33,103 nucleotides of DNA from an uncultured Clostridia bacterium (GTDB taxonomy: Bacteria; Bacillota; Clostridia; TANB77; CAG-508), in NCBI GenBank assembly GCA_948505485.1, contig CAOPQH010000002.1, positions 1 through 33,103 of the forward strand. Direction: 5' to 3'. Position 1 is the stretch's first letter; the number at the start of each line of letters is the position of its first letter. The notes under the pieces are model-generated. The model was given only the letters and a program-made list of their open reading frames with translations, was not told the origin of the DNA and did not search any database. A program made the translations under genes and the position numbers. Of the stretch, positions 6,604 through 33,103 are shown one piece after another.

Positions 6604-6623
6604 TTATTGCTCCTTAATAAATT

Positions 6624-6645
6624 AGGATACCATTTCTGGTATCCC
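6624..6645 (-). terminator. Attenuator/terminator hairpin between the antitoxin repeats and toxN
   Basis: Stem ggatacc (6625-6631) / ggtatcc (6638-6644) with a 6-nt loop, followed on the minus strand by UAAUUUAUU and then the toxN RBS. This is the same architecture as described for toxIN. Confidence 0.55.
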
Positions 6646-6647
6646 TA

Positions 6648-6757
6648 CTTTTTTCGTTCTTCACTTTATGGTAGAAGTTCACCGCTTTTTTCGTTCCCCA
6701 CTTTATGGTAGAGGCTCACCGCTTTTTTCGTTCCTCACTTATGGTAGAGGCTTACCA
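6648..6757 (-). ncRNA. toxI: ToxI-like type III antitoxin RNA: three tandem 36-37-nt repeats
   Basis: Repeat units at 6648-6684, 6685-6721 and 6722-6757. Minus-strand unit: CGGTGAGCCTCTACCATAAAGTGGGGAACGAAAAAAG. Each unit is bounded by an A-run, and a partial AAAAAG precedes the first transcribed unit. It shares the GGTGA..CTACC.T.AAGTG....GAAA pattern with the 36-nt ToxI repeat as I recall it. Confidence 0.8.
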
Positions 6758-6800
6758 CTTTTTAAACAATAATCAAATTATTGTTTCTTTTATTATATTC

Positions 6801-6829
6801 ATTATAAATTATTTTATTACATTTGTCAA
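6801..6829 (-). promoter_or_regulatory. Consensus sigma-A promoter for the toxI-toxN transcript
   Basis: On the minus strand: TTGACA (6829-6824), an exactly 17-nt spacer, then TATAAT (6806-6801). A 10-bp perfect hairpin aaacaataat/attattgttt (6765-6787) lies between the promoter and the first repeat. Confidence 0.6.
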
Positions 6830-11237: not shown

Positions 11238-11281
11238 TTTTATTATTCCTTTCTAATTTTAAAAATCTAAAATTTGAAATT

Positions 11282-11370
11282 GGAAGTAGAAAGTCAGAGG
11301 TCGGATGTCAGATGTTGGAAGTTAGAACTAATAGTTCTATTTCACCGACTTCTACTTCAACTAACCTCTA
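11282..11370. repeat. Family A heptamer-array inverted-arm element, copy a (outside the r-protein operon)
   Basis: The left arm is an array of NGTYAGA-like units (gaagtaga aagtcaga ggtcgga tgtcaga tgttgga agttaga). There is a central hairpin tagaact/agttcta. The right arm is an array of TCTRAC-like units (cgactt ctactt caacta acctcta). It abuts the stop codon of the alaS-like gene. Confidence 0.7.
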
Positions 11371-13119
11371 TTATTCTAAAATTGCCTTAATACGCCTTAT
11401 ACCTGCTGAACTTGCCTCTTCTTTTTTGATTTTGAATTTTCCTATTTCACTTGTATTTCTTACATGAGGTCCTCCACATAGTTCTTTAGAAATATTTCCT
11501 ATTTTATATACAGTAACAATATCTGGATATTTTTCAATGAACATACATTCAGCGCCTGATTTTATAGCTTCTTCTTTTGTCATTTCTTCTATAGTAACTG
11601 GAAGCTCTGCTTGTATCCACTCATTTACTAAATCTTCTGTTTTTTTCTTTTCTTCATCTGTTAATTTATGGTCACAATTAAAATCAAATCTCATTCTTTC
11701 TGTTGTTATGTTTGAGCCACGTTGATGAGTATCTGGACCTAATACAACTTTTAATGCTGCATTTAATAAGTGTGTTGCTGTATGATATGCTACTGTAACT
11801 TCATTTTGTTCTGCTAATCCACCTTTAAATTTTTGTTCAGATCCTTGTCTTGATTTTTCTTGATGTTCTTTAAATAATTTGTCAAATTCTTGTATATCAA
11901 CTGTCAATTTATTTTCTTCTGCTAATTCTTTTGTAACTTCTGGAGGAAATCCATAAGTATCATATAATTTAAATACTACTTTTCCACTTATTAATTTTTC
12001 TCCATTTTGAATTGCTTTATTCATTTCTTTATTAAATTCTTTTTCGCCATATGCAAGTGTTTTAACAAATTTATTTTTTTCTTCTATTATTGTATTTTTT
12101 ATGATTTCGAAATTATTTTCTAATTCTGGATACATTTCTTTTAGATTCTGCACATAAATTTCAATTAATGTGGAAATTTCATTTAAGTCTATTTGCAATT
12201 TATTCATATGTCTAATCATTCTACGAATTAATCTTCTTAAAACATATCCTCTATCAACATTACTTGGTCTTCCTCCATCAGATATTATCATCATACTTGA
12301 ACGCAAATGCTCTGCAATTATTCTTCTACTTTCAATATAATCTATTTTTTGTAATTCAAATAGTTTGTCCATTACTGGTTTAAATAATTCTGTATCAAAT
12401 GGCGTTTCTTTTCCTTGTAATAACATAGCCATTCTTTCTAGTCCTAATCCTGTATCAACATTTTTCTGCTTTAATGGTGTTAATTCTCCATTTTCATCTT
12501 TAAAGAATTGCATAAATACATTGTTCCATATTTCAACATATTTACCACAGTCACAATCTGGATTACAATTTTCAGAGCATTTAGGTTTTCCTGTATCATA
12601 AAATATTTCTGTATCACTTCCACAAGGACCTGTTTCTCCTGCTATCCACCAATTGTCTTTTAAGAAATATATATTATTTTTAGATATTCCAGCTTTTTGC
12701 CAGTAAGTTGCTGTTTCTTCATCTTTTTGTAAGACTTCATTTCCTCCAAAAACTGTTATATATAATTTTTCTACTGGTATTTTCAATTCTTTAGTTAAAA
12801 AATCAAAACTCATTTGAATAGATTCTTCTTTAAAATAATCTCCTAAAGACCAGTTTCCTAGCATTTCAAAATATGTTAAATGTCTATTATCTCCAACTTC
12901 GTCAATATCAACTGTTCTGACACACTTTTGAAAATCTGTAAGACGATTTCCCTCTGGATGCTTTTGTCCAAGTAAATAAGGTACAAGAGGTTGCATTCCA
13001 GCTGTATTAAACAATACAGATGGGTCGTTTTCTGGAATTAGTGGTGCACTAGGTATAACTTTGTGACCATGTTTTTCAAAAAATTTTAAATATTTATTTC
13101 TTATATCTATTGCTTTCAT
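11371..13119 (-). CDS. alaS: Short alanine--tRNA ligase homologue (catalytic, tRNA-recognition and minimal editing core domains; no C-Ala domain)
   Basis: 582 aa. The N-terminus is typical of AlaRS (FNTAGMQP, YFEMLGNWSLGDYFK, GLGLERM). The C-terminal ~145 aa carries the HxxxH (HTATHLL) and CxxxH (CGGPHV) editing-site motifs. It ends right after the editing core, whereas canonical bacterial AlaRS is about 870 aa. Confidence 0.8.
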   Translation of the reverse strand: MKAIDIRNKYLKFFEKHGHKVIPSAPLIPENDPSVLFNTAGMQPLVPYLLGQKHPEGNRLTDFQKCVRTVDIDEVGDNRHLTYFEMLGNWSLGDYFKEESIQMSFDFLTKELKIPVEKLYITVFGGNEVLQKDEETATYWQKAGISKNNIYFLKDNWWIAGETGPCGSDTEIFYDTGKPKCSENCNPDCDCGKYVEIWNNVFMQFFKDENGELTPLKQKNVDTGLGLERMAMLLQGKETPFDTELFKPVMDKLFELQKIDYIESRRIIAEHLRSSMMIISDGGRPSNVDRGYVLRRLIRRMIRHMNKLQIDLNEISTLIEIYVQNLKEMYPELENNFEIIKNTIIEEKNKFVKTLAYGEKEFNKEMNKAIQNGEKLISGKVVFKLYDTYGFPPEVTKELAEENKLTVDIQEFDKLFKEHQEKSRQGSEQKFKGGLAEQNEVTVAYHTATHLLNAALKVVLGPDTHQRGSNITTERMRFDFNCDHKLTDEEKKKTEDLVNEWIQAELPVTIEEMTKEEAIKSGAECMFIEKYPDIVTVYKIGNISKELCGGPHVRNTSEIGKFKIKKEEASSAGIRRIKAILE

Positions 13120-20899: not shown

Positions 20900-20957
20900 T
20901 TTTCCCTCCTAATATTATAACTAAATATATAAATCAGTTTATATAGAAAATAAACTA

Positions 20958-21584
20958 TTATTTTGAGTAAAGCTCTACTATTAAATGTTCTTCAATTGGT
21001 ATATCAACATCTTCTCTTGATGCTAATCTAACAACTTTACCACTCAAAGTTTCTTCATTTTTTTCTAACCATTCTGGAACTGGTCTAGCTGAGTTTTCTT
21101 CAATATTTGCTTTTATTGTTGGATTGTCTTTTTTTATTTCTCTAACAGCTATGATATCTCCTGCTTTTATTAAATATGAAGCTATATCAACTTTCTTACC
21201 GTTTACTTCAAAGTGTCCATGATTTACTAATTGTCTTGCTTGTGCTCTTGAAGATCCAAATCCTAATCTATATATAACATTGTCTAATCTACTTTCTAAT
21301 ATTTGTAACAAGTTTTCACCTGTAACTCCTTTTTTATTTGAAGCCATTTCGAAATATTTTCTAAATTGTTTTTCTCCAACTCCATAATATGATTTTGTTT
21401 TTTGTTTTTCTCTTAATTGTGTACCGTATTCAGATAGTTTTGCTCTTTTTTGTCCATGTTGTCCTGGTGCATAATTTCTTCTAGAAATACTACATTTATC
21501 TGAATAACATCTTGCACCTTTTAAGAACAATTTTTGACCTTCTCTACGACAGATACGGCATTGTTCATCTTTATATCTTGACAT
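20958..21584 (-). CDS. rpsD: 30S ribosomal protein S4
   Basis: 208 aa. N-terminal Cys cluster, S4 domain ([22 protein letters not shown]). Confidence 0.97.
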
Positions 21585-21612
21585 TTTTGTTATTACTCCT
21601 TTCTTATATTTA

Positions 21613-21710
21613 CATGTTAGTGAAATAGATGTTAGTAAAGTAGATTATATATTTTAATTTTCTAACCTCTAACTTCTAACCTCTAATTTACAACTTCTAA
21701 TTTTCAGTCT
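21613..21710. repeat. Family A heptamer-array element, copy b (rpsK-rpsD spacer)
   Basis: The left arm contains atgttag and agatgttag units. The right arm is seven consecutive heptamers at 21661-21709: tctaacc tctaact tctaacc tctaatt tacaact tctaatt ttcagtc. Confidence 0.7.
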
Positions 21711-21724
21711 TTATTATATTTGTT

Positions 21725-22120
21725 TTATACTCTTCTTCTTTTTGGTGGTCTACAACCATTATGTGGTATTGGTGTTACATCCTTTATAGCACTTATTTCT
21801 AAACCTGCTGTTTGAAGTGCTCTGATTGCAGCTTCTCTACCAGACCCTGGTCCTTTAACAAATACTTCTACAGATTTTAATCCATGTTCCATAGCAGCTT
21901 TTGCTGCTGTTTCTGCAACTTGACCTGCTGCAAATGGTGTACTCTTTCTTGATCCTTTAAAACCTAATTCGCCAGCACTTCCCCATGATATTGCATTTCC
22001 TTGTGTATCTGTAATTGTAACTATTGTATTATTGAAACTAGAATGAATATGTGCAGCACCTTTTTCAATGTTTTTTCTATTTCTTCTAGCAACTGTTTTT
22101 CTTGTTACATTTTTAGCCAT
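21725..22120 (-). CDS. rpsK: 30S ribosomal protein S11
   Basis: Canonical S11 sequence. I place the start at the ATG at 22120 (MAKNVTRK), because the upstream MEENKT codons are themselves the GGAGGAG RBS. Confidence 0.95.
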
Positions 22121-22173
22121 TGTTTTATTCTCCTCCATTCAATTAAGATATGAGATTAAATTCTCTATATTTA

Positions 22174-22542
22174 TTATTTGCTCTTTCTACTTACTAATTT
22201 TCTTGGTCCTTTTCTTGTACGAGCATTAGTTTTTGTTCTTTGTCCTCTAACTGGAAGACCTCTTCTATGTCTTAATCCTCTGTAGCAACCAATTTCTGTA
22301 AGCCTTTTAATATTAAGAGCTACTTCTCTTCTTAAGTCACCTTCAACTTTATAAGATGAGTCAATAACTTTTCTTATGCTATTAACTTCTTCTTCAGTTA
22401 AATCTTTAATTCTTGTATCTGGATTTACTCCAGCTTTTTCTAATATTTTTCTAGAACTTGATACTCCTATACCATAAATATATGTAAGTCCTATTTCTAC
22501 TCTTTTTTCTTTAGGCAAATCTACTCCTGCTATACGAGCCAT
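22174..22542 (-). CDS. rpsM: 30S ribosomal protein S13
   Basis: [26 protein letters not shown] is canonical. The start is the ATG at 22542; the tracked TTG start at 22560 overlaps the GGAGGTG RBS. Confidence 0.95.
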
Positions 22543-22596
22543 ATTTTTTTGCACCTCCAAAACTTGATTTTATTATTATTTGTTTTGTCCTATTTT

Positions 22597-22708
22597 CTTA
22601 AAGGTGAAATGCACTAATTAAAAATTAGTCTTTAAGGTTTAGAACATATATATAAACACAAATTTGATATCGAAACTTTCGTTTCACAGCCGCTACCTAA
22701 TTTGTGTT
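22597..22708. repeat. Two stem-loops in the rpmJ-rpsM spacer
   Basis: H1 (22597-22636): cttaaag/ctttaag plus actaatt/aattagt. H2 (22655-22708): perfect 10-bp aacacaaatt/aatttgtgtt enclosing gatatcgaaactttcgtttc. The atcgaaa motif is shared with family B. Confidence 0.5.
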
Positions 22709-22719
22709 ATTAACTAAAA

Positions 22720-22833
22720 TTATCCTTGTCTTTGTTTGTGTTTAGGGTTTTCACAAATAACTCTAATCACACCTTTTCTTTTAATTATTTTACATTTATC
22801 GCATATTTTCTTTACTGATGGTCTTACTTTCAT
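22720..22833 (-). CDS. rpmJ: 50S ribosomal protein L36
   Basis: Too short for the ORF track. Hand translation gives [37 protein letters not shown], with RBS AGGAGGTG. Confidence 0.95.
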
Positions 22834-22904
22834 TTTTGCACCTCCTAAAATATTTATATTTATTTGGGTTAATTTTTACATTAATTTATTATATAAAGCA
22901 AATC

Positions 22905-22997
22905 AAAAGTAGTAAGATATTAATTTTTATTAATTAAGACGAAATCGTACTATGGTATATCGAGTTAAATTAATAAAATTGATATATTGCTGCTTTT
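22905..22997. repeat. Family B nested long palindrome, copy E1 (infA-rpmJ spacer)
   Basis: Outer stem aaaagtagtaag/tattgctgctttt, second stem atattaatttttattaattaa/ttaaattaataaaattgatat, apex gacgaaatcgtactatggtatatcgag. Confidence 0.7.
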
Positions 22998-23004
22998 CAT
23001 TTTT

Positions 23005-23223
23005 TTACTTTGCTCTCCAAGTTATACGTCCTCGTGTCAAATCATAAGGTGAAAGCTCTACTTTTACTTTATCCCCTGGTAAGATTTTTATATAATTCAT
23101 TCTAAGTTTCCCTGAAATATGAGCTAATATTTGATGTCCATTTTCAAGTTCAACTTTAAAATTTGTGTTTGGTAATGCTTCTACTACTGTTCCTTCTACT
23201 TCTATAACATCTTCTTTAGCCAA
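23005..23223 (-). CDS. infA: Translation initiation factor IF-1
   Basis: 72 aa, canonical S1-like IF-1 sequence ([25 protein letters not shown]). Confidence 0.97.
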
Positions 23224-23295
23224 GATATCGCCTCCCTTATAGATTTTTACATAATTGGCATTTTATACCAATAGCTTATATAGTATATAACAATT

Positions 23296-24066
23296 TTAAA
23301 GTATTGTCAATATTTTTGGCTCTTTTTCTGTAATTAAAATTGTATTTTCATAATGTGCTGCTAAGCTTCCATCTTCTGTTATAATTGTCCATCCATCATC
23401 TAATTGTAAAATATTAGGTTTTCCTTGTATTACCATGGGTTCTATGGCTAAAGTCATACCTGGTTCTAATCTTAATCCTTTCCCTGCTTTTCCGTAATTT
23501 GGAATACCTGGATCTTCATGCATTTCTCTACCTATTCCATGTCCCTGAAACTCTCTTACTACTGAATATCCTTGTGACTCAACATATTTTCCTATAGCAT
23601 GTGATATATCTCCAACCCTGTATCCTTTTTTGGCAAATTTTATTCCTTCGAAAAAAGCCTGTTTTGTAACTTCTACTAATCTTTGTGCTTTATTAGAAAC
23701 TTTTCCTACTATAAATGTTCTTGCTGCATCTCCGTTAAATCCATTTTTCATTGCTACAGTATCAACACTTACAATGTCTCCTTCTTTTATTATTCTATTT
23801 TTAGATGGAATTCCATGTATTACTTCATCATTTATTGATATACATGTTGATGCTGGAAAATCAGGTATACCGTTTATCCCTGATGGATAACCTTTTTCAG
23901 CAGGAATTGCTCCATTATCTATCATTACTTTTTCAGCAATTTTATCTAATTCTGATGTTGTCATTCCAGGCTTTATTTTTTCTTCTAACTCTTTGTATGT
24001 TAATGCTACAATTTTACATGCTTCTTCCATGTATTGTATTTCTTTACTTGACTTTATAGTTACCAT
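23296..24066 (-). CDS. map: Type I methionine aminopeptidase
   Basis: 256 aa with metal-ligand motifs (VSVDT, NGFNGD, GHGIG, EP, E). In the operon position after adk. Confidence 0.95.
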   Translation of the reverse strand: MVTIKSSKEIQYMEEACKIVALTYKELEEKIKPGMTTSELDKIAEKVMIDNGAIPAEKGYPSGINGIPDFPASTCISINDEVIHGIPSKNRIIKEGDIVSVDTVAMKNGFNGDAARTFIVGKVSNKAQRLVEVTKQAFFEGIKFAKKGYRVGDISHAIGKYVESQGYSVVREFQGHGIGREMHEDPGIPNYGKAGKGLRLEPGMTLAIEPMVIQGKPNILQLDDGWTIITEDGSLAAHYENTILITEKEPKILTIL

Positions 24067-24067
24067 T

Positions 24068-24733
24068 TTATTCTCCCTTTAAGAATTTTATTAAATCGCT
24101 TGCTACATCATTTCCTAATCTATTTACTTTTTTACTCACTTCTTCAGATCTTAATAGTCCTTTTTCTTTATAATATTCTACAAGTGGACTTGTTTGTTTA
24201 AAATATGTATCTAATCTATTTTTTATTGTTTCACTGTTATCATCTTTTCTTTTTATTAATTCACTTCCACATTTATCACAAACACCCTCTGTTTCTGGTG
24301 GATTTAATTCAAGGTTATATACAGTTTTGCAATCTTGATTTGAACAAATTCTTCTGTTTATAACTCTTTCTATAATTTCACTTTCTGGTGTTGTTAAATT
24401 TAATACTATTTTTACTTCTTTGCCTTTTTCTTTTAATATTTCATCTAATTTTTTTGCTTGATTAACTGTTCTTGGGAATCCATCAAGTATCATTCCCTTT
24501 TGTACATCTGGCTCTTCAATTCTGTTTTTTATTATTCCTATTGTAATTTCGTCAGGTACAAGTTCTCCCTTAGACATATATTCCTCTGCCGATTTTCCTA
24601 ACTCTGTTTTATTTTTAATGTTTTCTCTAAAAATGTCTCCTGTTGATATTTGTGGTATTCCTAATTTTTCTGATAAAGTTGATGCAACTGTTCCTTTTCC
24701 AGTTCCAGGTGCCCCTAGCATAATAATAATCAT
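24068..24733 (-). CDS. adk: Adenylate kinase (zinc-lid type)
   Basis: P-loop GAPGTGKGT and a lid with C..C...C..C (CSNQDC, CDKCG). Confidence 0.95.
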   Translation of the reverse strand: MIIIMLGAPGTGKGTVASTLSEKLGIPQISTGDIFRENIKNKTELGKSAEEYMSKGELVPDEITIGIIKNRIEEPDVQKGMILDGFPRTVNQAKKLDEILKEKGKEVKIVLNLTTPESEIIERVINRRICSNQDCKTVYNLELNPPETEGVCDKCGSELIKRKDDNSETIKNRLDTYFKQTSPLVEYYKEKGLLRSEEVSKKVNRLGNDVASDLIKFLKGE

Positions 24734-24798
24734 TATAACTTCTCTCCTTTTATAATTTAGATTATTAATTTAATAATCTTTATAATATCTACTAATAT

Positions 24799-24869
24799 TG
24801 ATGTCAGAAGTCTGAAGTCAGAGGTCGGAATATCTATTTAACTTACCTCTACTTCACTGACTTCTAATT
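24799..24869. repeat. Family A heptamer-array element, copy c (secY-adk spacer)
   Basis: Left arm tgatgtcag aagtctg aagtcag aggtcgga, right arm cttacct ctacttc actgact tctaatt. It shares the exact 14-mer agtcagaggtcgga with copy a and the exact 17-mer ttcactgacttctaatt with copy d. Confidence 0.75.
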
Positions 24870-24942
24870 AATAAACATTATAAAAATCATTATAGGGTGA
24901 TATGCTAAATACATATCTCCCCATAATAATATTGGTTTTGTT

Positions 24943-26259
24943 CTACTCTAAAAATCCTTTATAATGTCTCATTACTAATTGAGATTCTAATTGTTGTACT
25001 GTTTCTAATGCAACACCTACTACAATCAATATAGATGTACCACCAAATGCAATATTTAGACTTGTAAATCTTAATAACATTGGTAATATAGCTATAATAG
25101 CTAAGAAAAATCCACCAAACCATGTCAATTTACTTATTATAGAAGATAAGTATTCTGTTGTTGGTTTTCCTGCCCTTATACCTGGTATAAATCCACCATT
25201 CTTTTTTATATTGCTTGATACTTCTGCTGGATTAAATGTAGCATATGTGTAGAAGAATGTGAATCCCATTATTAATAACAAATAAACAAGTGCATTAGCA
25301 ATAGAATACCCAAGTCCTACACTTGAAGATGATGTAGCAATTGAAAATTTATATAATCCTGCTAAAAATCCTGTCTTAGTTGCTATGTCCTTTACAAATA
25401 TTTGTATTATCATAGCTGGAAATGTCATAAATGATGATGCAAATATTATTGGCATAACTCCTGCCATTGCTAATTTTAATGGTATATGTGTTGATTGTGC
25501 TCCTACCATTTTTCTTCCAACTACTTTTTTAGAATATTGTACTGGAACTCTTCTTTCCGCTTGTTGCACAAATACAACTCCGGAAACTAATATAAGCGCT
25601 CCTATTATTATTCCAATTGATAATAATAAACCTGTTGTACTAAATCCATCTGTTGGCATTATTAATCCCCATAATGTTGTAACAACAGAAGGCAATCCAG
25701 AAACTATACCTATAAATATTATCATAGATATTCCATTGCCAATACCTTTGTTTGTGATTTGCTCTCCTAACCACATAAGCAATGCTGTTCCAGCAATTAA
25801 TCCTATTACGACTAGTGCACCTGTCAAAAGCCCTGGTTTTATAAATATTCCTGAAGATTTATAAGATAAATAAATTCCTATACCTTCAACTAATGATAAT
25901 ACTATAGTTAAAATTTTTGTATATGCATTTATTTTTTGTCTTCCTACTTCTCCACCTTCTTTTGTTAACTTTTCTAAAGATGGAATTACCATTCCTAATA
26001 ATTGTATAACAATTGATGCAGTGATATATGGAGTAATAGACATTGCAAATATAGAAAATCTTGAGAAAGCACCTCCTGAAATCATGTCTATTAATCCTGT
26101 TATCCCTTCACTTGACATTGCATTGTTTAAAGCTACAATATCAACTCCTGGAACTGTTACATAGCATCCAAATCTAAACACTACTATTAATAATAATGTA
26201 TATAATAATCTTTTTCTTACATCTGGTGTTTTTAATGCATTTTTTATAGTTTTTAACAA
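24943..26259 (-). CDS. secY: Preprotein translocase subunit SecY
   Basis: 438 aa polytopic membrane protein. Has the canonical SecY N-terminus and the operon position after rplO. Confidence 0.97.
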   Translation of the reverse strand: MLKTIKNALKTPDVRKRLLYTLLLIVVFRFGCYVTVPGVDIVALNNAMSSEGITGLIDMISGGAFSRFSIFAMSITPYITASIVIQLLGMVIPSLEKLTKEGGEVGRQKINAYTKILTIVLSLVEGIGIYLSYKSSGIFIKPGLLTGALVVIGLIAGTALLMWLGEQITNKGIGNGISMIIFIGIVSGLPSVVTTLWGLIMPTDGFSTTGLLLSIGIIIGALILVSGVVFVQQAERRVPVQYSKKVVGRKMVGAQSTHIPLKLAMAGVMPIIFASSFMTFPAMIIQIFVKDIATKTGFLAGLYKFSIATSSSSVGLGYSIANALVYLLLIMGFTFFYTYATFNPAEVSSNIKKNGGFIPGIRAGKPTTEYLSSIISKLTWFGGFFLAIIAILPMLLRFTSLNIAFGGTSILIVVGVALETVQQLESQLVMRHYKGFLE

Positions 26260-26694
26260 TTAAATCACCTCAGCCTTTCCGCCAACGGCTTCTATTTTTT
26301 CTTTTGCTTGAGCTGTAAATCTATTGGCTTTTACATTTATTTTTTTATCTAATTTTCCTGTTGCTAGTACTACTATTCCATCATTTACTTTTCCAATTAT
26401 ACCTTCTGCTAATAATGTTTCTGCTGTAACATCTGTTGCTTTGCTTTTATTTAGCATTGTTAATGTTACCTCTGTATAATTTTTAGCATGAATATTAGTA
26501 AATCCTCTTTTTGGTAATCTTCTATATAAAGGAGTTTGACCACCTTCAAAGCCTCTTCTAACTCCTCCACCTGATCTAGCTTTTTGTCCCTTTTGACCTC
26601 TACCTGAAGTTTTTCCAAGACCAGATCCAATTCCACGTCCTACTCTTGTTCTTTTAACTCTTTTTTCAGCTGGTTTTAATTCATCTATTTTCAT
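26260..26694 (-). CDS. rplO: 50S ribosomal protein L15
   Basis: 144 aa with the G-rich N-terminal region ([25 protein letters not shown]). Confidence 0.97.
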
Positions 26695-26734
26695 TATATT
26701 TATTGCACCTCCTTAAAATTTAATTTTTAAATTT

Positions 26735-26839
26735 TAGATGTCTAATGCTAGATGTCTGACGTCAGATGTCAGATATTCGAAATTAAAATCTCTAATTCAC
26801 TGACTTCTAATTCACTGACTTCTAATTCACTGACTTCTA
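26735..26839. repeat. Family A element, copy d, with three perfect 15-nt tandem repeats (rpsE-rplO spacer, where rpmD normally lies)
   Basis: Left arm tagatgtctaatgc tagatgtctgacg tcagatgtcagat. The right arm is tctaattcactgact three times (26791-26805, 26806-26820, 26821-26835), abutting the rpsE stop codon. Confidence 0.8.
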
Positions 26840-27331
26840 TTATAATATTTCTTCTACTTTTTTACCTCTTTTTTGAGCTACTTTTTCAATTGTTTGCATT
26901 GATTTTAGTCCTTCTATTGTAGCATACACAACATTTCTAGGATTGTTTGTTCCTATAACCTTTGTTCTTATATCTTTGTATCCTGCAAGTTCTAACACTG
27001 GTCTAACACTTCCACCAGCTATAACTCCTGTACCTACAGCTGCTGGTTTTAGCATAACTTTAGCGCTACCAAATTTTCCTACAAATTCATGTGGTACAGT
27101 TGTTTCAACGATTGGTACTTCTACTAAATTCTTTTTAGCTTCTTGTATAGCTTTTTTTATTGCATCTGGAACTTCAGCTGCTTTTCCATTACCTACACCA
27201 ACATGACCATTCTCATCTCCGACAACAACAACAGCACTAAATCTAAAGTTTCTACCACCTTTAACAACTTTTGCAACTCTATTGATAGCAACTACTTTTT
27301 CTTTTAACTCTACTGTATTATTTTCTTCCAT
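26840..27331 (-). CDS. rpsE: 30S ribosomal protein S5
   Basis: 163 aa. Contains [24 protein letters not shown], which is canonical S5. Confidence 0.97.
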
Positions 27332-27430
27332 TGATTATTGTTCTCCCTTCTTTCATAATTTCCTTTTTTATATTTTTTGTATTTAATATCTGTAACATTG
27401 AATTCTTTTAGGAAATCTTGTTATCATATA

Positions 27431-27790
27431 TTAAAATTTTAATCCACCTTCTCTAGCAGCTTCAGCTAATTCTTTAACTACTCCGTGATATATATATCCA
27501 CTACGATCAAAAACAACTGTCTCTATTTTCTTTGCTTTTGCTTTTTTTGCAATTAAAGATCCAACTTCTTTAGCCGCTTCTTTATTGGCATGTTTTGACT
27601 TTACATCTTTGTTAAGTGTAGATACGCTAACTAATGTGTTTCCTTCTACATCATCTATGATTTGTGCATATAAATTTGTATTGCTTTTATATATACATAA
27701 TCTTGGTCTTTCTGCTGTACCAGATACTTTTCTTCTTACTCTTAAATGTCTTCTTGCTCTTTCAAATTTTCTATCTGTTTTTTTAATCAT
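27431..27790 (-). CDS. rplR: 50S ribosomal protein L18
   Basis: 119 aa. Contains [18 protein letters not shown] and a C-terminal GGLKF. Confidence 0.97.
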
Positions 27791-27835
27791 TTATATTACT
27801 CCTTTCATAAAATTTAATATTTATGATTTCTAAAA

Positions 27836-27956
27836 TTTTGATGAAATTGATTGGATTGTGCATTTTTGTTAGTTATTGCAATCAGAAGGCGTACATTGGT
27901 ACGTCGATGTTTGCAATAGATAACGAAAATATGCAAGATAATTGATTTCATCGAAA
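27836..27956. repeat. Family B nested long palindrome, copy E2 (rplF-rplR spacer)
   Basis: 17-bp outer stem ttttgatgaaattgatt/aattgatttcatcgaaa (3 G:T pairs). Second stem tgtgcatttttgtta/taacgaaaatatgca. Third stem ttattgcaa/ttgcaata. Apical 7-bp stem ggcgtac-attg-gtacgtc. Confidence 0.75.
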
Positions 27957-27961
27957 TTTAA

Positions 27962-28498
27962 TTATTTTCCAGTTTTACCCTCTTTACGCCTAATAACCTC
28001 ATCAGCATATTTAATTCCTTTTCCTCTATATACTTCTGGTGGTCTTTTTGATCTAACAACTGCTGCTGTTTGACCAACTAATTCTTTATCAATACCTTTT
28101 ACAATAATAGTATTTGGATTTGGTACATCAAATGTAATTCCTTCTGGTGCGTCAAATATAACTGGATGAGAATAACCTAATGTAAGGTTTAGTCCATTTC
28201 CTTGTTTTTGAACTCTATATCCAACACCATTTATTTGTAATTCTTTGCTAAATTGTTCTGTTACACCTATTATCATATTATTAATTAAAGTTCTTGTTAA
28301 ACCATGCAAACTTCTTGATGCTGGTTCATCATCTTTTCTTATAACTTTAATAATATTTTCATTTATTTCTATAGAAATATCTTTATGTATTTCTCTTTCT
28401 AATGTACCTTTTGGTCCTTTTACTGTAATTATATTATTATTCATTTTAACTTCAACTTCACTTGGTACTGTAATAGGTTTGTTTCCTATTCTTGACAT
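27962..28498 (-). CDS. rplF: 50S ribosomal protein L6
   Basis: 178 aa, [17 protein letters not shown], canonical L6. Confidence 0.97.
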
Positions 28499-28525
28499 TT
28501 CCTATATCCTCCTTTTCATCAAATT

Positions 28526-28924
28526 TTACCATATATAAGCTAAAACTTCTCCACCTACACCTAATTGTCTTGCTTCTTTATCAGTTTTTAATCCTTTTGA
28601 TGTAGAAATTATAGCTATTCCTAAACCATTTAATACTTTTGGTAATTCTTCTTTATTAGCATATACCCTTAATCCTGGTTTGCTTATTCTTTTTAATCCA
28701 TCAATAACTCTATTACCTTTTTCATCATATTTTAAAGTAACTCTAATAATTCCCTGACTCTCATCTTTTATTTCTTCAAAAGATTTTATATATCCTTCTT
28801 TGAATAAAATTTCAGCTATGGCTGATTTCATATTTGATGCAGGAATATCAACAACTTTATGTTTTGAGCTATTTGCATTTCTTATTCTTGTTAGCATATC
28901 TGCTATTGGATCTGTAGTATTCAA
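28526..28924 (-). CDS. rpsH: 30S ribosomal protein S8
   Basis: 132 aa, [14 protein letters not shown], canonical S8. Confidence 0.97.
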
Positions 28925-28947
28925 CTCTATTTCCTCCTTTTCTTTTC

Positions 28948-29072
28948 CGGAAGTCAGATGTCAGACAAACACTCTTACTTTAATCTTCTTCCTATAATAT
29001 TTTTAAATTAATTATTTTATAATATTTCATCAGAACATATTTTTTTGAATTCTATTTCACTTACATCTAATT
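28948..29072. repeat. Family A element, copy e (rpsN-rpsH spacer), with arms separated by an AT-rich insert
   Basis: Left arm ccggaagtcagatgtcagac (28948-28967). The right arm ttctatttcacttacatctaatt (about 29050-29072) resembles the copy a right arm ttctatttcaccgacttctactt. Confidence 0.5.
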
Positions 29073-29077
29073 TTTAA

Positions 29078-29251
29078 TTTTGATGAAATTGCTTATAATG
29101 TACTTTTTTAAAGAATCTTTTATAAATTTTATTATCTAAAATTGATTAAAAGTAGTAATATGTGCATTTTTATGAGATAATCAAGACGAAGTCGTACGTT
29201 TGTACGTCGAGGTTTGATTATCGAAATTAAAATGTGCAGATTGCTGCTTTT
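29078..29251. repeat. Family B composite, copy E3 (core palindrome 29148-29251 plus a displaced E2-type left arm at 29078-29091)
   Basis: Outer stem aaaagtagtaat/attgctgctttt (2 G:T). Second stem tgtgcatttt/aaaatgtgca (2 G:T). Third stem gataatcaa/ttgattatc (perfect). Apex gacgaagtcgtacgtttgtacgtcgaggt. The 14-mer ttttgatgaaattg at 29078-29091 is identical to the start of the E2 left arm. Confidence 0.7.
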
Positions 29252-29261
29252 AATCTATTTT

Positions 29262-29447
29262 TTACCAGCTTGCTTTTTTAACACCTGGAATCTCACCTTT
29301 ATGTGCTAATTCTCTAAAACATACACGGCAAATTCCATATTTTCTAATAAAACTGTGTGGTCTACCACATAATTTACATCTATTATATTCTCTTGTTTTA
29401 TATTTTTGTGGTCTTGCTTGTTTTATTTTCATTGCTTTTTTAGCCAT
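29262..29447 (-). CDS. rpsN: 30S ribosomal protein S14, type Z (zinc-binding)
   Basis: 61 aa with CKLCGR...CRVCFRE. Confidence 0.97.
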
Positions 29448-29476
29448 TTATTTTTCTCCTTCCTTAATTTAGGAAC

Positions 29477-30016
29477 TTAAGCTTTAAAAGGCATTCCTAA
29501 AAGTTTTAATAATTCTCTAGCTTCTTCATCAGTTTTTGCTGTTGTAACAAATATAATATCCATTCCTCTTAATTTATCAACTTTATCATACTCGATTTCT
29601 GGGAATATTAATTGTTCTTTTACACCTATAGAGTAATTTCCTCTACCGTCAAAAGAATTTACTGATACTCCTCTAAAATCTCTTACTCTTGGAAGTGCTA
29701 CATTGAAGAATTTATAAGCAAAATCATACATTTTCTCTGCTCTTAATGTTACTTTACATCCAATGTTTACACCTTCTCTTAACTTAAAGGCTGCAATTGA
29801 TTTTTTTGCTTTAGTTATTACTGGCTTTTGACCTGTAATTTGAACTAAATCATTCATTGCATTTTCTAAAGCTTTAGGATTCTCCTTTGTGTCTCCTAAA
29901 CCGATATTTATAACTATTTTTGCAAGTTTTGGTGCTTGCATTACAGATTTATATTCAAATTTTTTCATTAATGCTGGGATTACTTCTTTTTCATATTGTT
30001 CTCTTAATTTTTCCAT
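29477..30016 (-). CDS. rplE: 50S ribosomal protein L5
   Basis: 179 aa, canonical L5 (NVMQAPKL-like, GMDI.FVTTA). Confidence 0.97.
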
Positions 30017-30037
30017 TTATATTAATCCTCCTTTCTA

Positions 30038-30346
30038 TTATTTTAATTTTGCTCCGCATTTTTTACAAACACGCACTTTTTTATCATTTTCTATAATATA
30101 TCCTATTTTTGTAGCTTTACCACATTTTGAACATACTACATTAACTTTACCGTTTGGTATAGCACATTCTATAGGTATTATTCCGCCTTCTTCTCCTTGT
30201 TTTCTAGGTTTTACATGTTTTTTTCTAATATTAACACCCTTTACAATTACTTTTTCTGATTTTGGCATTACTTCTAAAACTTCTCCTGTTTTACCTTTAT
30301 CATTTCCTGATAAAACTTGAACAGTATCACCTTTTTTTATTTTCAT
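30038..30346 (-). CDS. rplX: 50S ribosomal protein L24 with a Cys4 (CxxC-19-CxxC) motif in the C-terminal part
   Basis: 102 aa. The KOW N-terminus KKGDTVQVLSGNDKGKTGEVL is canonical. The C-terminal VCSKCGKATKIGYIIENDKKVRVCKKCG is unusual. Confidence 0.95.
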   Translation of the reverse strand: MKIKKGDTVQVLSGNDKGKTGEVLEVMPKSEKVIVKGVNIRKKHVKPRKQGEEGGIIPIECAIPNGKVNVVCSKCGKATKIGYIIENDKKVRVCKKCGAKLK

Positions 30347-30399
30347 TATAGAGTTTCCCTCCTTTTTAGTTTTTTGGTTGATTTTTATTTAATTTAAAT

Positions 30400-30575
30400 C
30401 TATGCATCTTTAATCCTCAGAGCTAAAATGTCTACCGCACATTTTAGTTGAAGAAGCTACGACTAACTATTTGTAATATTCGTTCAGCCTAAGGGCTGTA
30501 CTCATTAACAAATGTTAAGCCTATGCATCTTTAATCCGTAATACTCAAATGTCTACTAGACATTTTCGTTAACGG
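30400..30575. repeat. Structured 176-nt spacer element: two ~55-nt direct repeats, each carrying a hairpin, flanking a central stem-loop
   Basis: The perfect 17-nt direct repeat ctatgcatctttaatcc occurs at 30400-30416 and 30521-30537. Each copy is followed, 8 nt later, by a hairpin (aaaatgt-ctaccgc-acatttt and aaatgtcta-c-tagacattt). The centre has atttgtaat/attaacaaat enclosing cagcc-taa-gggctg. Confidence 0.7.
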
Positions 30576-30576
30576 C

Positions 30577-30945
30577 TTAAAGAACTTCTGGGGCTAAAGA
30601 TAATATTTTCATATATTCTTTTTCTCTTAATTCCCTTGCAACTGGTCCAAATATACGTGTTCCTTTTGGTGTTCCGTCTTCTTTAATTATTACAGCTGCA
30701 TTTTCATCAAATTTAATATATGATCCATCTGCTCTTCTTAAACCTTTTTTTGTTCTTACTATAACTGCTTTTACTACTTCGCCTTTTTTTACAACGCCAC
30801 CTGGTGTTGCTGATTTAACAGAAGCAACTATAACATCTCCTATGTTAGATGTTTTTCTATATGATCCACCTAAACATCTGATACACATAATTTCTTTTGC
30901 ACCAGTGTTGTCTGCAACTTTTAATATTGTCTGTTGTTGTACCAT
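30577..30945 (-). CDS. rplN: 50S ribosomal protein L14
   Basis: 122 aa, [18 protein letters not shown], canonical L14. Confidence 0.97.
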
Positions 30946-30995
30946 GTTTATTTACCTCCCTTTAATTTTGTTAATAAACACCATAGTGTTAATCT

Positions 30996-31259
30996 TTATT
31001 TAATAACTGCTTTTTCTACAACTTCAACTACTCTCCATCTTTTATCCTTAGAAAGTGGTCTTGTTTCCATTACTTTTACTTTATCACCTATTTGGCAAGC
31101 ATTTTCTTCATCATGTGCTTTTAATTTATATGTTCTTTTAACTGTTTTTCCATATATCTTATGACTAACACTTGTTTCAACAGCTACTACAACTGTTTTA
31201 TCCATTTTATCAGATGTAACAGTACCAATCATAACTTTACGAAGATTTCTTTCTTCCAT
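30996..31259 (-). CDS. rpsQ: 30S ribosomal protein S17
   Basis: 87 aa, [14 protein letters not shown]...H..Y.K, canonical S17. Confidence 0.97.
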
Positions 31260-31302
31260 TTATGAATCCTCCTTCTTATTTTTCTAAGTTCTATATAATT
31301 TT

Positions 31303-31426
31303 GTGTCGGATATCGGATGTCTGTAAAATAGATGTCAGTTAATATATCTCTACTTCAGTTTTTACATATAACTTTTTTTGTATCTCTGACCTCTGATTTC
31401 TGACCTCTGATTTCTAACCTCTAATT
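31303..31426. repeat. Family A element, copy f (rpmC-rpsQ spacer), with 14-nt tandem repeats
   Basis: Left arm gtgtcgga tatcgga tgtctg..tagatgtcag. In the right arm, tctgacctctgatt occurs twice (31385-31398, 31399-31412), then tctaacctctaatt (31413-31426) overlaps the rpmC stop codon. Confidence 0.75.
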
Positions 31427-31637
31427 ATGCTTTTGATTCTGCAATTTTTCTTTCTGTTAATACAGTATTTATTTTTGCAATGTCTTTTTTAACTTCTTTA
31501 ATTTTCATTGGATTATCTAATCCATTTGTAGCTAAACTAAATTTTAATTTAAATAATTCTGATTTTAGTTCACCTAATTCTTTTTCTAAGTCTGGTGAAG
31601 ACATTTCTCTTATCTTATTTATCTTCATCATTATCAC
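31425..31637 (-). CDS. rpmC: 50S ribosomal protein L29
   Basis: The L29 helix-hairpin sequence ([24 protein letters not shown]) is present. The tracked start is GTG at 31637 inside the rplP 3' end. An ATG at 31631 or 31628 is at least as likely. Confidence 0.9.
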
Positions 31638-32061
31638 CCACCTTGTTTTCAGTTTCTCTTGCTACGAATTTTGTTTTTATTGATAACTTATTTCTTGCAA
31701 GTCTTAAGGCTTCTCTTGCAGTTTCTTCTGGTACTCCTGCTATTTCAAACATTATTCTACCAGGTTTAACAACTGCTACCCAATATTCTGGAGCTCCTTT
31801 TCCTTTACCCATACGAGTTCCAATTGGTTTTGAAGTTATTGGTTTATCTGGAAAAATCTTTATCCAAACTTTTCCACCTCTCTTTATATAACGAGTCATA
31901 GCTACACGGGCTGCCTCTATTTGATTTCCTGTAATCCATCCTGCTTCTAATGCTTGTATCCCGTATTCTCCATCTGTAATTCTATTTCCTCTTGTTGCTT
32001 TTCCTCTCATTCTACCTTTTTGCATTTTTCTAAATTTTGTTCTTTTTGGCATTAATGGCAT
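31615..32061 (-). CDS. rplP: 50S ribosomal protein L16
   Basis: 148 aa, [17 protein letters not shown], canonical L16. The start overlaps the rpsC stop (TAATG). Confidence 0.97.
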
Positions 32062-32717
32062 TATTTTTCTCCTCCTTCCACTTTCTTGGCTGGAAGAATT
32101 TCACCCTTATATATCCAAACTTTTACACCTATTTTTCCATATGTTGTATTTGCTTCTGCAAATCCATAATCTATATCAGCTCTTAAAGTTTGAAGTGGTA
32201 TTGTACCATCTTTATAGAATTCAGTTCTAGCCATATCAGCTCCACCTAATCTTCCAGATACTGCTGTTTTTATTCCCAAAGCACCTGCCTTCATAGATTT
32301 TTGCATACATTGTTTCATGGCTCTTCTGAATGAAATTCTTCTTTCTAATTGTCCAGCGATATTTTCTGCAACTAATTGTGCATCTATATCTATATTTTTT
32401 ACCTCAACAATATTTAAACTAATTTCTTTTCCAATTAATTTTGAAAGCTCAGTTTTTATACTTTCTGCTCCTGCTCCACCTTTTCCTATAACAATTCCTG
32501 GTTTAGCAGTATATACATTTGCTCTTACAAATTTTGCTGTTCTTTCAATTTCTATTTTTGAAATTCCAGCAGTATATAATTTTTTCTTTAAAAATTTACG
32601 GATTTTTTGATCTTCTACTAAATAATTCGCAAAATCTTTAGAATTTGCATACCATTTAGAATTCCAATCTTTTATTATCCCTACTCTAACTCCTGTTGGA
32701 TGTACTTTTTGTCCCAT
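32061..32717 (-). CDS. rpsC: 30S ribosomal protein S3
   Basis: 218 aa, [24 protein letters not shown], canonical S3. Confidence 0.97.
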
Positions 32718-32736
32718 TTATTTAAATCCTCCTTTC

Positions 32737-33090
32737 TTATTTGTCATCTCTTAACACTATTGTAATATGACTTGTTCTTTTTCTTATTCTAACTGCAGAT
32801 CCTTTTGCAGCTGGTCTTATTCTTTTTAATGTTGGTCCTTGATTTGCATAAATTTCAGCAACATATAAATTTTCATGTTTCATGTTGTGGTTATTCTCAG
32901 CGTTTGCTATTGCTGATTTTAATAATTTTTCTATTATTTTTGAAGAAGCTTTTGGTGTAAATTTAACTATAGCTAATGCTTCGTCTACACTTTTACCTCT
33001 TATTAAATCTGCAACAATTTTTACTTTTCTTGAAGATATTCTTGCAAATTTAAGAGTTGCTTTAGCTTCTATTACTGTTGTTTCTTCCAC
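32737..33090 (-). CDS. rplV: 50S ribosomal protein L22
   Basis: 117 aa. GTG start with GGAGGG 7 nt upstream. Contains [28 protein letters not shown], canonical L22. Confidence 0.95.
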
Positions 33091-33103
33091 GGATTTTCCC
33101 TCC

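What the first reader, a model, noticed from the sequence alone, without database searches (positions are those of the whole stretch)
26735..26839. Family A: inverted arrays of a degenerate heptamer (NGTYAGA ... TCTRACN) fill spacers of the r-protein operon
Six spacers contain the same kind of element: 11282-11370, 21613-21710, 24799-24869, 26735-26839, 28948-29072 and 31303-31426. Each has a left arm made of 3-6 units resembling GTCAGA/GTTAGA/GTCGGA. Each has a right arm made of the reverse-complement units TCTGAC/TCTAAC/TCTAAT. The arms can pair imperfectly. In several copies the right arm has recently amplified. Examples are three perfect 15-mers (tctaattcactgact, 26791-26835), two perfect 14-mers plus a diverged third (31385-31426), and seven consecutive heptamers (21661-21709). 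In three copies the array runs directly into the stop codon of the upstream gene. In the mRNA sense the 5' arm reads as repeated AGAAGU/AGAGGU, which are Shine-Dalgarno-like purine motifs, and the 3' arm as repeated ACCUCU/ACAUCU, which are anti-SD-like. They might therefore act as ribosome standby or sequestration sites, RNase processing signals, or binding arrays for an RNA-binding protein. That functional reading is speculative. The repeat family itself is directly visible.
Basis: partly seen in the sequence, partly recalled or inferred. Interest (0 to 1): 0.6.

Follow-up and report, generated by a model that had tools for sequence, protein, structure and literature searches.

The report
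Gene-less heptamer-armed hairpin repeats between genes
The repeats are real copies of a small dispersed hairpin-forming element whose arms are runs of a 7-base word; they look like gene-less relatives of a cassette that, in sister gut bacteria, carries a small "23S rRNA intervening-sequence protein" gene, and nothing here shows that they regulate the ribosomal genes.

Summary
Observation confirmed. The word (TCYRACN)x3 with up to 2 mismatches occurs 17 times in the window, against 0.01 expected. All six spacers carry it. One spacer (alaS to HIT) is not in the r-protein cluster, and two copies (E2, E5) are decayed.

The genome is a 1.34-Mb MAG, 86% complete, from the uncultured gut Clostridia order TANB77. 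It holds about 14 copies, all between co-directional housekeeping genes.

Every copy reads GTYRGA...TCYRAC, but that holds on both strands of any palindrome. The real polarity is one arm of 15-mers (AGARGTYRGTGAAAT) and one of plain heptamers, and it lies in either direction relative to transcription.

- Only 2 of 6 cores fold better than shuffles.
- G.U does not outnumber A.C between the arms (35 v 39).
- None looks like a terminator.
- Arms differ between strains by 7, 14 or 15 nt.
- Most relatives have 15-40-nt spacers at the same sites.

The family is very patchy: 8 of 201 genomes in the order. In a congener (259 array hits) and in nine related alleles, the same arms bracket a PF05635 gene fixed between grpE and dnaK.

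Best reading: a selfish or neutral foldback repeat that changes length by slippage and is related to IVS-type cassettes. The Shine-Dalgarno reading is unsupported. No RNA data could be obtained.

The parts
26791..26839 (-). E4 (S5 to L15 spacer), arm A. It is three perfect 15-mers, TAGAAGTCAGTGAAT, plus TAGAG, and starts directly after the rpsE stop codon.
   Evidence: period 15, 3.3 copies, 100%. Strain contig L193 has 2 copies instead of 3.
26735..26774 (-). E4, arm B: heptamers ATCTGAC ATCTGAC GTCAGAC ATCTAGC ATTAGAC ATCTAA. The loop is 26775-26790.
   Evidence: Core fold -28 kcal/mol, z = -3.6. The same arm and 3' flank are present in G022, with a remnant in G016.
11278..11370 (-). E1 (alaS to HIT spacer). 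The 15-mer-type arm is 11334-11370 and the heptamer arm (TCYRACN x 5-7) is 11278-11333.
   Evidence: Fold z = -1.8. Strain L276 has one extra heptamer.
21613..21710 (-). E2 (S11 to S4 spacer), in reverse polarity. The plain heptamer arm (AGAGGTT/AGAAGTT) is 21655-21710, at the mRNA 5' side. The 15-mer-type arm, read antisense, is 21613-21645.
   Evidence: Fold z = -0.2. The spacer is only 20-36 nt in G022 and G023.
24799..24872 (-). E3 (SecY to Adk spacer). The 15-mer-type arm is 24833-24871 and the heptamer arm is 24799-24830.
   Evidence: Fold -24.3 kcal/mol, z = -4.5. In G022 the flanks are conserved and a 40-nt unrelated or decayed stretch sits in its place.
28945..29075 (-). E5 (S14 to S8 spacer), a decayed copy. 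The arm remnant TTAGATGTAAGTGAAATAGAAT is at about 29045-29072. The heptamer arm TCTGACATCTGACTTCCGG is 28945-28965, just before the rpsH ribosome-binding site.
   Evidence: Fold z = -0.7. Strain L191 has two more heptamers and a better 5' arm. A homologous decayed arm is present in G022.
31300..31427 (-). E6 (L29 to S17 spacer), in reverse polarity. The plain heptamer arm is 31384-31426 (14-mers AGAGGTCAGAAATC). The degenerate 15-mer-type arm, read antisense, is 31303-31345.
   Evidence: Fold z = -1.4. It is identical in two other strains and absent in G022 and G016.

Best explanation
The six spacers hold copies of a dispersed, gene-less foldback repeat. Each copy has two inverted arrays of one 7-nt word (GTYRGAN ... 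NTCYRAC). One arm is often built from a compound 15-mer, AGARGTYRGTGAAAT.

Shown:
- The family has about 14 copies in this genome.
- All copies sit in the narrow zone between a stop codon and the next ribosome-binding site of co-directional housekeeping genes.
- Copies lie in either polarity relative to transcription.
- Arms gain and lose whole units (7, 14 or 15 nt) between strains.
- Copies are present, decayed or absent at the same site in sister species.
- The same arms, including the compound 15-mer, bracket a PF05635 ('23S rRNA intervening-sequence protein', four-helix bundle) gene fixed between grpE and dnaK. This holds in one congener and in nine related metagenomic alleles.

Inferred:
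- The window's copies are non-autonomous relatives of that IVS-like cassette.
- They were spread by an unknown copy-and-paste step.
- Selection leaves them only where they break neither an ORF nor a ribosome-binding site.
- Replication slippage then reshapes them.

They must be co-transcribed with the operons and can form imperfect hairpins. RNase III, which is encoded in this genome, could cut such hairpins as it cuts IVS stems. Any effect on r-protein mRNA is most likely incidental rather than a selected regulatory function.
For: - Non-random family.
- Other copies lie at tpiA>gpmI, porG>porD, tktN>tktC, rplA>rplJ and tig>clpP.
- Strain copy-number changes of -15, +14 and +7 nt.
- Turnover between species: the S5>L15 copy is shared by G000 and G022 with a remnant in G016, whereas 25 other congeners lack it there (many with 15-70-nt spacers). 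E2 and E6 are absent in G022, G016 and G023..
- Patchy distribution: in the genus only G000, G022 and G050 have more than 2 hits among 61 genomes. In the order, 8 of 201 genomes have any hit.
- No selection for pairing: G.U 35 v A.C 39; core fold z-scores of -3.6, -4.5, -1.8, -1.4, -0.7 and -0.2.
- Both polarities occur.
- Two copies sit in frame inside a 2629-aa ORF of G077.
- Gene-bearing relatives: G077 (= G050, same genus) and G079 carry a PF05635 gene (137 and 134 bits) between an R arm and a Y arm in grpE-dnaK. Alleles of 65-98% identity are all at that locus and all have these arms.
- 21 of 24 array-bearing genomes of other phyla have PF05635 genes. 6 of 30 fetched loci have strict inverted heptamer arrays on both sides..
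Against: - No transposase or other mobilising activity was identified.
- No target-site duplication or empty/filled polymorphism within the species was found.
- PF05635 has no known catalytic activity.
- Carriers G278 (100% complete, 50 exact hits) and G022 (100% complete) have no PF05635 gene. G078 (205 hits) has none detected..
- G000's own grpE-dnaK region is unassembled, so its status is unknown.
- Five of 14 copies fall in the r-protein cluster (hypergeometric p = 1.4e-5).
- The S5>L15 copy has persisted across three species.
- Two copies are significantly stable hairpins.

The last three points would also fit a selected RNA role.
Confidence: 0.6

Rival explanations
1. The elements are selected intercistronic RNA hairpins. 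As part of the polycistronic mRNA they would serve as RNase III processing sites or 3'-exonuclease barriers, and so set the stability of segments of highly expressed operons.
For: - All copies lie inside co-directional operons of highly expressed genes.
- They are enriched in the r-protein cluster.
- E3 and E4 fold with z = -4.5 and -3.6.
- RNase III is encoded in the genome.
- The S5>L15 copy is shared by three species.
- Other species carry unrelated hairpin repeats in the same spacers.
- IVS stems of the same build are RNase III substrates (PMC4990558).
Against: - Four of six cores fold no better than shuffles.
- There is no excess of wobble pairs over A.C mismatches.
- Sense and antisense folds are equally good.
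- Both polarities occur.
- Arm length varies between strains.
- Most congeners have minimal spacers at these sites.
- The family is absent in 193 of 201 genomes of the order.
Confidence: 0.2
2. The arrays are simple-sequence repeats that arose in place. Heptamer microsatellites would have grown by slippage independently in each spacer, with no copying between loci.
For: - Unit-sized copy-number changes occur between strains.
- There are perfect recent 15-mer and 14-mer duplications.
- Heptamer repeats are reported as the most over-represented long SSR class in intergenic DNA of many bacteria (Mrazek 2007, as cited in PMC4679880 and PMC4692102).
Against: - The same word is used at about 14 loci.
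- The same compound 15-mer AGARGTYRGTGAAAT recurs at E1, E3, E4, E5, C11 and C49, and in the IVP cassettes of other species.
- All copies are inverted pairs of the same handedness (GTYRGA first): 14 of 14 here and 6 of 6 two-armed copies in G077.
- Copies fill sites that are 20-nt minimal spacers in relatives.
- Permuted words form almost no arrays.
Confidence: 0.1
3. The purine arm would act as an array of Shine-Dalgarno-like sites and the pyrimidine arm as anti-SD mimics. Together they would hold, pause or sequester ribosomes between cistrons.
For: - The words GGAGGT/AGAGGT and ACCTCC/ACCTCT are present in the arms.
- Arrays start at stop codons and end 20-70 nt before start codons.
Against: - The purine-first order holds on both strands, so it is not tied to the mRNA.
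- Many units are AGAAGT/AGATGT, with poor SD potential.
- The same word is used in genomes of unrelated phyla with very different GC content.
- Copies are translated through in frame in G077.
- The elements are not conserved across congeners.
Confidence: 0.05
4. The arrays are binding sites for a trans-acting protein on DNA or RNA. The candidate is the pentameric PF05635 four-helix-bundle protein or another repeat reader, and the binding would have a function in its own right, such as nucleoid, replication or RNA chaperoning.
For: - The PF05635 gene has stayed embedded in same-word arms while the protein diverged to 65% identity.
- Array-rich genomes of many phyla are rich in PF05635 genes.
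Against: - G278 and G022 are complete genomes with arrays but no PF05635 gene.
- No binding data exist.
- A 7-bp period does not match the DNA helical repeat.
Confidence: 0.1

Closest known systems
Intergenic heptamer repeats. Examples are the cyanobacterial STRR sequences, the GGGAATC/GGGGAYT arrays of Xanthomonas and Nostoc, some as inverted pairs (Rehm et al. 2015, PMC4692102), and the TAACTGA repeats of Beggiatoaceae (MacGregor 2015, PMC4679880).
   Same: - Tandem 7-nt units lie in intergenic DNA.
- Length varies between close relatives.
- Inverted pairs can form stem-loops.
- Copies occur inside r-protein operons at internal junctions (PMC4679880).
- Function is unknown.
   Different: - The word differs (GTYRGA/TCYRAC).
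- The host is a 26%-GC gut Clostridia lineage.
- Every copy here is an inverted pair.
- One arm uses a compound 15-mer.
- A gene-bearing version exists in congeners.
23S rRNA intervening sequences that carry an S23p/PF05635 ORF (Coxiella, Leptospira; PMC4990558).
   Same: In the congeners' cassette a PF05635 ORF sits in the loop between terminal inverted repeats. The distribution is sporadic. RNase III is the known processor of such stems.
   Different: - The cassette is in an mRNA operon (hrcA-grpE-dnaK), not in 23S rRNA.
- The arms are heptamer arrays.
- The window's copies have no ORF at all.
- RNase III cleavage is untested.
REP/REPIN elements with their single-copy RAYT gene (Bertels and Rainey 2011, PMC3116915).
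   Same: Dispersed intergenic hairpin-forming doublets coexist with one vertically inherited gene that is flanked by its own repeats. Lineages without the gene carry few copies, some of them decayed.
   Different: - The gene is a four-helix bundle, not a Y1 transposase.
- This genus has RAYT-like genes, but the one I examined is flanked by a different, GC-rich REP.
- No Y1 transposase is found in G000.
Rickettsia palindromic elements and bacterial MITEs (BOX, RUP, Correia). This comparison rests on my own knowledge, not on a check made here.
   Same: These are small, non-coding, palindromic dispersed repeats that are tolerated between genes. In the congener G077 copies are also inserted in frame within an ORF.
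   Different: There is no fixed length and no conserved internal sequence. Arms are tandem arrays that slip. No target-site duplication and no cognate transposase were seen.

Membership tests
Intergenic heptamer SSR arrays (STRR / Xanthomonas-type) | Tandem arrays of a 7-nt unit, far beyond chance | tested here: met
   17 matches v 0.01 expected. Permuted-word control 1.1 v 17. TRF periods of 7, 14 and 15.
Intergenic heptamer SSR arrays (STRR / Xanthomonas-type) | Intergenic location and length polymorphism between close relatives | tested here: met
   All copies are intergenic. Strain differences are -15, +14 and +7 nt.
IVS-type cassette (PF05635 ORF between inverted repeats) | PF05635 ORF in the loop | tested here: not met
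   There is no ORF in any window copy, and tblastn with the congeners' IVP found nothing in G000. The feature is met in G077/G050, G079 and the metagenomic alleles.
IVS-type cassette (PF05635 ORF between inverted repeats) | Terminal inverted repeats forming a stable stem cut by RNase III | tested here: inconclusive
   Arms are inverted, but only E3 and E4 fold better than shuffles. An RNase III gene is present. Cleavage cannot be tested here.
IVS-type cassette (PF05635 ORF between inverted repeats) | Insertion in 23S rRNA | tested here: not met
   All copies lie between protein-coding genes.
REPIN-RAYT system | A Y1 transposase (PF01797) gene flanked by the same repeat | tested here: not met
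   G000 has no PF01797 hit. The RAYT-like gene of G022 is flanked by the GC-rich REP GTGCCAAAGGGGGCGTCCC, not by heptamers.
MITE | Terminal inverted repeats plus target-site duplication and a related autonomous transposon | tested here: inconclusive
   The ends are inverted. Possible 8-9-nt direct repeats flank E1 and E2, but this is AT-rich sequence and no empty site was available at strain level. No transposase was found.
Intrinsic transcription terminator | GC-rich stem followed by a U tract | tested here: not met
   None of the 9 terminator-like sites in 20900-33103 lies in a heptamer element.
Any curated RNA family (Rfam 15) | Match at the gathering score | tested here: not met
   There are 0 matches in the whole window.

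The most novel reading that the evidence does not exclude
Heptamer-armed hairpins and the PF05635 four-helix-bundle gene may form a two-part system like REPIN-RAYT. A single-copy, vertically inherited gene would sit inside its own arms, here in the heat-shock operon between grpE and dnaK. That gene would maintain or disperse gene-less hairpins across the genome.

On this reading, the window's copies are either served in trans by an unassembled grpE-IVP-dnaK locus or are an orphan population that is decaying. If true, this would give a partner and a mechanism to heptamer repeats (STRR, Xanthomonas, Beggiatoa) that have gone unexplained since 1990. It would also explain IVS ORFs.
Probability: 0.3. 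Interest if true: 0.8.

Novelty: new member of a known kind. Interest (0 to 1): 0.5.

Why it matters
Intergenic heptamer repeats have been noted in cyanobacteria, Xanthomonas and sulfur bacteria for decades, with no known function or origin.

This window shows a clean, low-copy family of them in an uncultured human or animal gut lineage, TANB77. Strain-level slippage and species-level turnover can both be read directly from the sequences.

The same arms, down to a compound 15-mer, bracket a conserved PF05635 gene in sister species. That gives a concrete, testable candidate partner for this class of repeat.

For annotation, the practical message is that the expanded spacers of this r-protein cluster are repeat insertions, not conserved leaders or regulators.

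Tried and rejected
- Rfam scan of the window: no match.
No transcript ends or processing could be checked.
- 'Orientation relative to transcription': I first took the purine-arm-first order as evidence for an RNA role. I dropped this on realising that it holds on both strands. The true polarity marker (15-mer arm) points both ways.
- Wobble-bias test for RNA-level pairing: negative.
- Sense versus antisense fold energies: no consistent difference.
- RAYT/REPIN link: rejected.
- Terminator function: rejected.
- Internal promoter idea (CTGACA resembles a -35 box): promoter-like sites are no more frequent than in shuffles (55 v 64.7). I did not pursue it.
- IVP in G000: not found. The grpE-dnaK locus is missing from the assembly, because contig C95 ends at the grpE start.
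- I tried to recover that locus through an exact HrcA look-up, a metagenome pattern scan and IVP-bearing contigs. These gave either too-short contigs or other species (hrcA 80% nt identity).
- Target-site duplications: no strain-level empty site was found.
- Weak PF05635 hits in the genus and in G000:C129 turned out to be DGR Avd genes next to reverse transcriptases or template repeats. They are unrelated to the arrays.

Full report
**What is there.** The window is contig C2 of a 1.34-Mb, 148-contig, 26%-GC assembly that is 86% complete. Earlier notes of this scan place it in the uncultured gut Clostridia order TANB77. All genes of the r-protein cluster run on the minus strand.

Read in mRNA sense, each of the six spacers has the same build:
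- a purine-rich arm of units such as AGAAGTC, AGAGGTT and GGAGGTC;
- a short loop;
- a pyrimidine-rich arm of units such as ATCTGAC, CTCCGAC and TTCTAAC.

The flanking genes are:

| Copy | Flanking genes |
|---|---|
| E1 | alaS>HIT |
| E2 | rpsK>rpsD |
| E3 | secY>adk |
| E4 | rpsE>rplO |
| E5 | rpsN>rpsH |
| E6 | rpmC>rpsQ |

So one of the six is outside the r-protein cluster.

**Is it more than chance?** Yes.
- Three units of TCYRACN with up to 2 mismatches match 17 times in the window. Dinucleotide shuffles give 0.01.
- GTCAGA occurs only 106 times in the whole genome.
- Genome-wide, 17 arrays score at least 16/18, against a mean of 1.1 for permuted words.
- Clusters exist at about 8 further loci. 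These include tpiA>gpmI, porG>porD, the two transketolase halves, rplA>rplJ, tig>clpP and upstream of polA.
- Five of 14 copies fall among the 24 junctions of the r-protein cluster, out of 913 co-directional junctions (hypergeometric p = 1.4e-5).

**Anatomy and polarity.** Every copy reads GTYRGA...TCYRAC. This is true on both strands of such a palindrome, so it says nothing about the mRNA. It does define the element's handedness, and the opposite type (TCYRAC first) was never seen. The count is 14 of 14 here and 6 of 6 two-armed copies in G077.

A real asymmetry exists. One arm is often made of a compound 15-mer, AGARGTYRGTGAAAT, and the other of plain heptamers. The 15-mer arm is on the mRNA 5' side in E1, E3, E4, E5, C11 and C49. 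It is on the 3' side in E2 and C16, and E6 is a degenerate case of the same. In G077 the ratio is 1:4. The elements therefore lie in both directions relative to transcription.

**Do they behave as selected RNA hairpins?** Only weakly.
- Core folds give z = -3.6 (E4), -4.5 (E3), -1.8 (E1), -1.4 (E6), -0.7 (E5) and -0.2 (E2).
- Sense and antisense fold energies show no consistent preference.
- I aligned each 5' arm to the reverse complement of its 3' arm with a scoring scheme blind to wobble. This gave 394 Watson-Crick positions, 35 G.U, 39 A.C, 70 transversions and 35 gaps. Pairing is a by-product of both arms using the same word. It is not maintained.
- No terminator-like site lies in an element.
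- Rfam has no match.
- RNase III is encoded in the genome.

**Dynamics.** Contigs from other samples that encode identical S5, S17 or HIT proteins show unit-sized changes:
- E4 has two instead of three 15-mers in L193.
- E5 has two more heptamers and a better 5' arm in L191.
- E1 has one extra heptamer in L276.
- E6 is unchanged.

Between species:
- Among 28 congeners, many have an S5>L15 spacer of only 15-70 nt.
- G000 (145 nt) and G022 (130 nt) share the element and its 3' flank there.
- G016 keeps a 63-nt remnant.
- Several other species carry an unrelated G-rich repeat at the same place.

Across the whole operon, E2 and E6 are absent from G022, G016 and G023. E5 is decayed in G022. At least three other repeat families occupy operon spacers in these genomes.

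**Distribution.**
- In 61 genomes of the genus, only G000 (30 overlapping hits), G022 (17) and G050 (259) have more than two hits.
- In 201 genomes of the order, 8 have any exact hit. Only G000 and G278 (50 hits) have several.
It returned 120 loci from many phyla (Verrucomicrobiota, Acidobacteriota, Bacteroidota, Cyanobacteria, Desulfobacterota, Patescibacteria), often as long arrays or inverted pairs.
- Three small gut Clostridia MAGs carry more than 200 hits each.
- One of these, G077, is the same genome as G050 of the genus.

**The gene-bearing relative.** Earlier notes of this scan proposed that inverted heptamer arrays bracket PF05635 genes, so I tested that here.
- G077/G050 has one strong PF05635 gene (137 bits). 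It lies between grpE and dnaK.
- It is preceded by TAGAGGTTAGAGAAATAGAGGTTGGAGGTTAGAAATC and followed by ATCCAACCTCCAACTTCTAACCTCAAAACTCTAACCTCTA.
- G079 has the same arrangement.
- Homologues of 65-98% identity from metagenomes are all found as grpE-IVP-dnaK, preceded by hrcA or uvrA.
- Each distinct allele carries downstream TCYRAC-type heptamers and most carry upstream arm units; the L313 allele has only a trace upstream and a small hairpin downstream, and the L319 upstream units are degenerate (AGGTAGG type). The upstream arm often reads AGATGTCAGTGAAATAGAGGTCGGAGGTCGG, the same compound unit as in E4 and E1.
- The arms have thus stayed with the gene while the protein diverged to 65% identity. 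Gene-less copies, by contrast, decay between sister species.
- In 24 array-bearing genomes of other phyla, 21 have 1-12 PF05635 genes, against 1 of 14 control genomes.
- Of 30 such loci, 6 have strict inverted heptamer arrays on both sides and 3 on one side. One has GTCAGAG...CTCTGAC.

Against an obligatory link:
- G278 and G022 (both 100% complete) and G078 have arrays but no PF05635 gene.
- Weak PF05635 hits in the genus, including G000:C129, are DGR Avd genes.
- G000's own status is open. Contig C95 ends 92 nt after hrcA, at the first codons of grpE, and neither grpE nor dnaK is assembled.
- The IVP contigs I could fetch belong to other species, with hrcA at 80% nt identity.

**Other tests.**
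- The REPIN-RAYT idea fails. G000 has no Y1 transposase, and the RAYT-like gene of G022 is flanked by a different GC-rich REP.
- In G077, two copies sit in frame, without stop codons, inside a 2629-aa ORF. This resembles the in-frame insertions known for Rickettsia palindromic elements (my own knowledge).

**Reading.** The best-supported account is a DNA-level, selfish or neutral foldback repeat.
- It is related by its arms to an IVS-like PF05635 cassette.
- It survives only in the few bases between a stop codon and the next ribosome-binding site. That explains why arrays 'run into' stop codons.
- It is reshaped by slippage.

Published parallels are the inverted GGGAATC heptamer pairs of Xanthomonas (PMC4692102), the TAACTGA repeats found inside r-protein operons of Beggiatoaceae (PMC4679880), and 23S rRNA intervening sequences. 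In the last, a 28-bp stem of terminal inverted repeats encloses the S23p ORF and is cut by RNase III (PMC4990558).

A selected role in mRNA processing remains possible (I put it at about 0.2). The Shine-Dalgarno reading has no support.

The enrichment in the r-protein cluster is unexplained. It could reflect either insertion into heavily transcribed DNA or tolerance there. Several unrelated repeat families show the same preference in this genus.

Noticed in passing
window 29110-29261, 27791-27961, 22834-23004 (minus strand): A second, unrelated repeat family of about 150-170 nt fills the 5' part of the S14>S8 spacer, the L6>L18 spacer and the IF1>L36 spacer. Its core is ...TCGACGTACAAACGTACG...AAAAATGCACA.... 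Mean column identity is 68%. Copies also occur in G022 and G016 (S13>S11). It is probably the structured repeat noted earlier on another contig of this genome.
   Followed up: partly
window 30347-30576 (L14>L24 spacer): This 230-nt spacer has an internal duplication of a unit, GCCGTTAACGA...ACGGATTAAAGATGCATAG. Related units are present in the same spacer of G016 and G022.
   Followed up: no
window 26695-26839: rpmD (L30) is absent between rpsE and rplO here and in all 28 congeners examined. In 12 or more of them this junction is occupied by some repeat or hairpin of differing families.
   Followed up: partly
window 24880-24925 (minus strand): A separate strong hairpin, GGGGAGATATG...CATATCACCC, lies just after secY, upstream of E3. 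It is conserved in G022 and in strain L191.
   Followed up: no
window 6112-6829: A 37-nt tandem repeat (3.2 copies, 6648-6763) lies next to a 163-aa ORF.
   Followed up: no
G077 (=G050) C9:11422-14180: polA is split into a 312-aa ORF and a 604-aa ORF exactly at a heptamer array (GAAGTTGGAGGTCGGACAACGGAGGTCAGAGG). The array contains two CGG codons. Reading each CGG as four bases would join the two frames.
   Followed up: no
G077 C6:18230-26119: A 2629-aa ORF contains two heptamer-armed elements in frame, at 21624-21716 and 25618-25703. They are translated as ...EEKSDVGGQKEDVREKMSEDRSPTSDFRPPTSE... and ...EVEIRGKMLEVQPPTSNLQLPTSNFQPLTSK....
   Followed up: partly
G022 C50:6000-7400 (locus L214): A RAYT-like Y1 transposase gene lies between queA and tgt. 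It is flanked on both sides by a GC-rich palindrome, GTGCCAAAGGGGGCGTCCCTTTTGGCAC. This is a classical REP-RAYT arrangement in this genus.
   Followed up: partly
G000 C129:1380-1730 (locus L268): A 115-aa Avd-like ORF (PF05635, 18.7 bits) is followed by an AAC-rich stretch typical of a DGR template repeat. This is probably a diversity-generating retroelement.
   Followed up: no
window 11371-13119: The alaS product is only 582 aa (catalytic plus tRNA_SAD domains). It appears to lack the usual C-terminal part of bacterial AlaRS.
   Followed up: no
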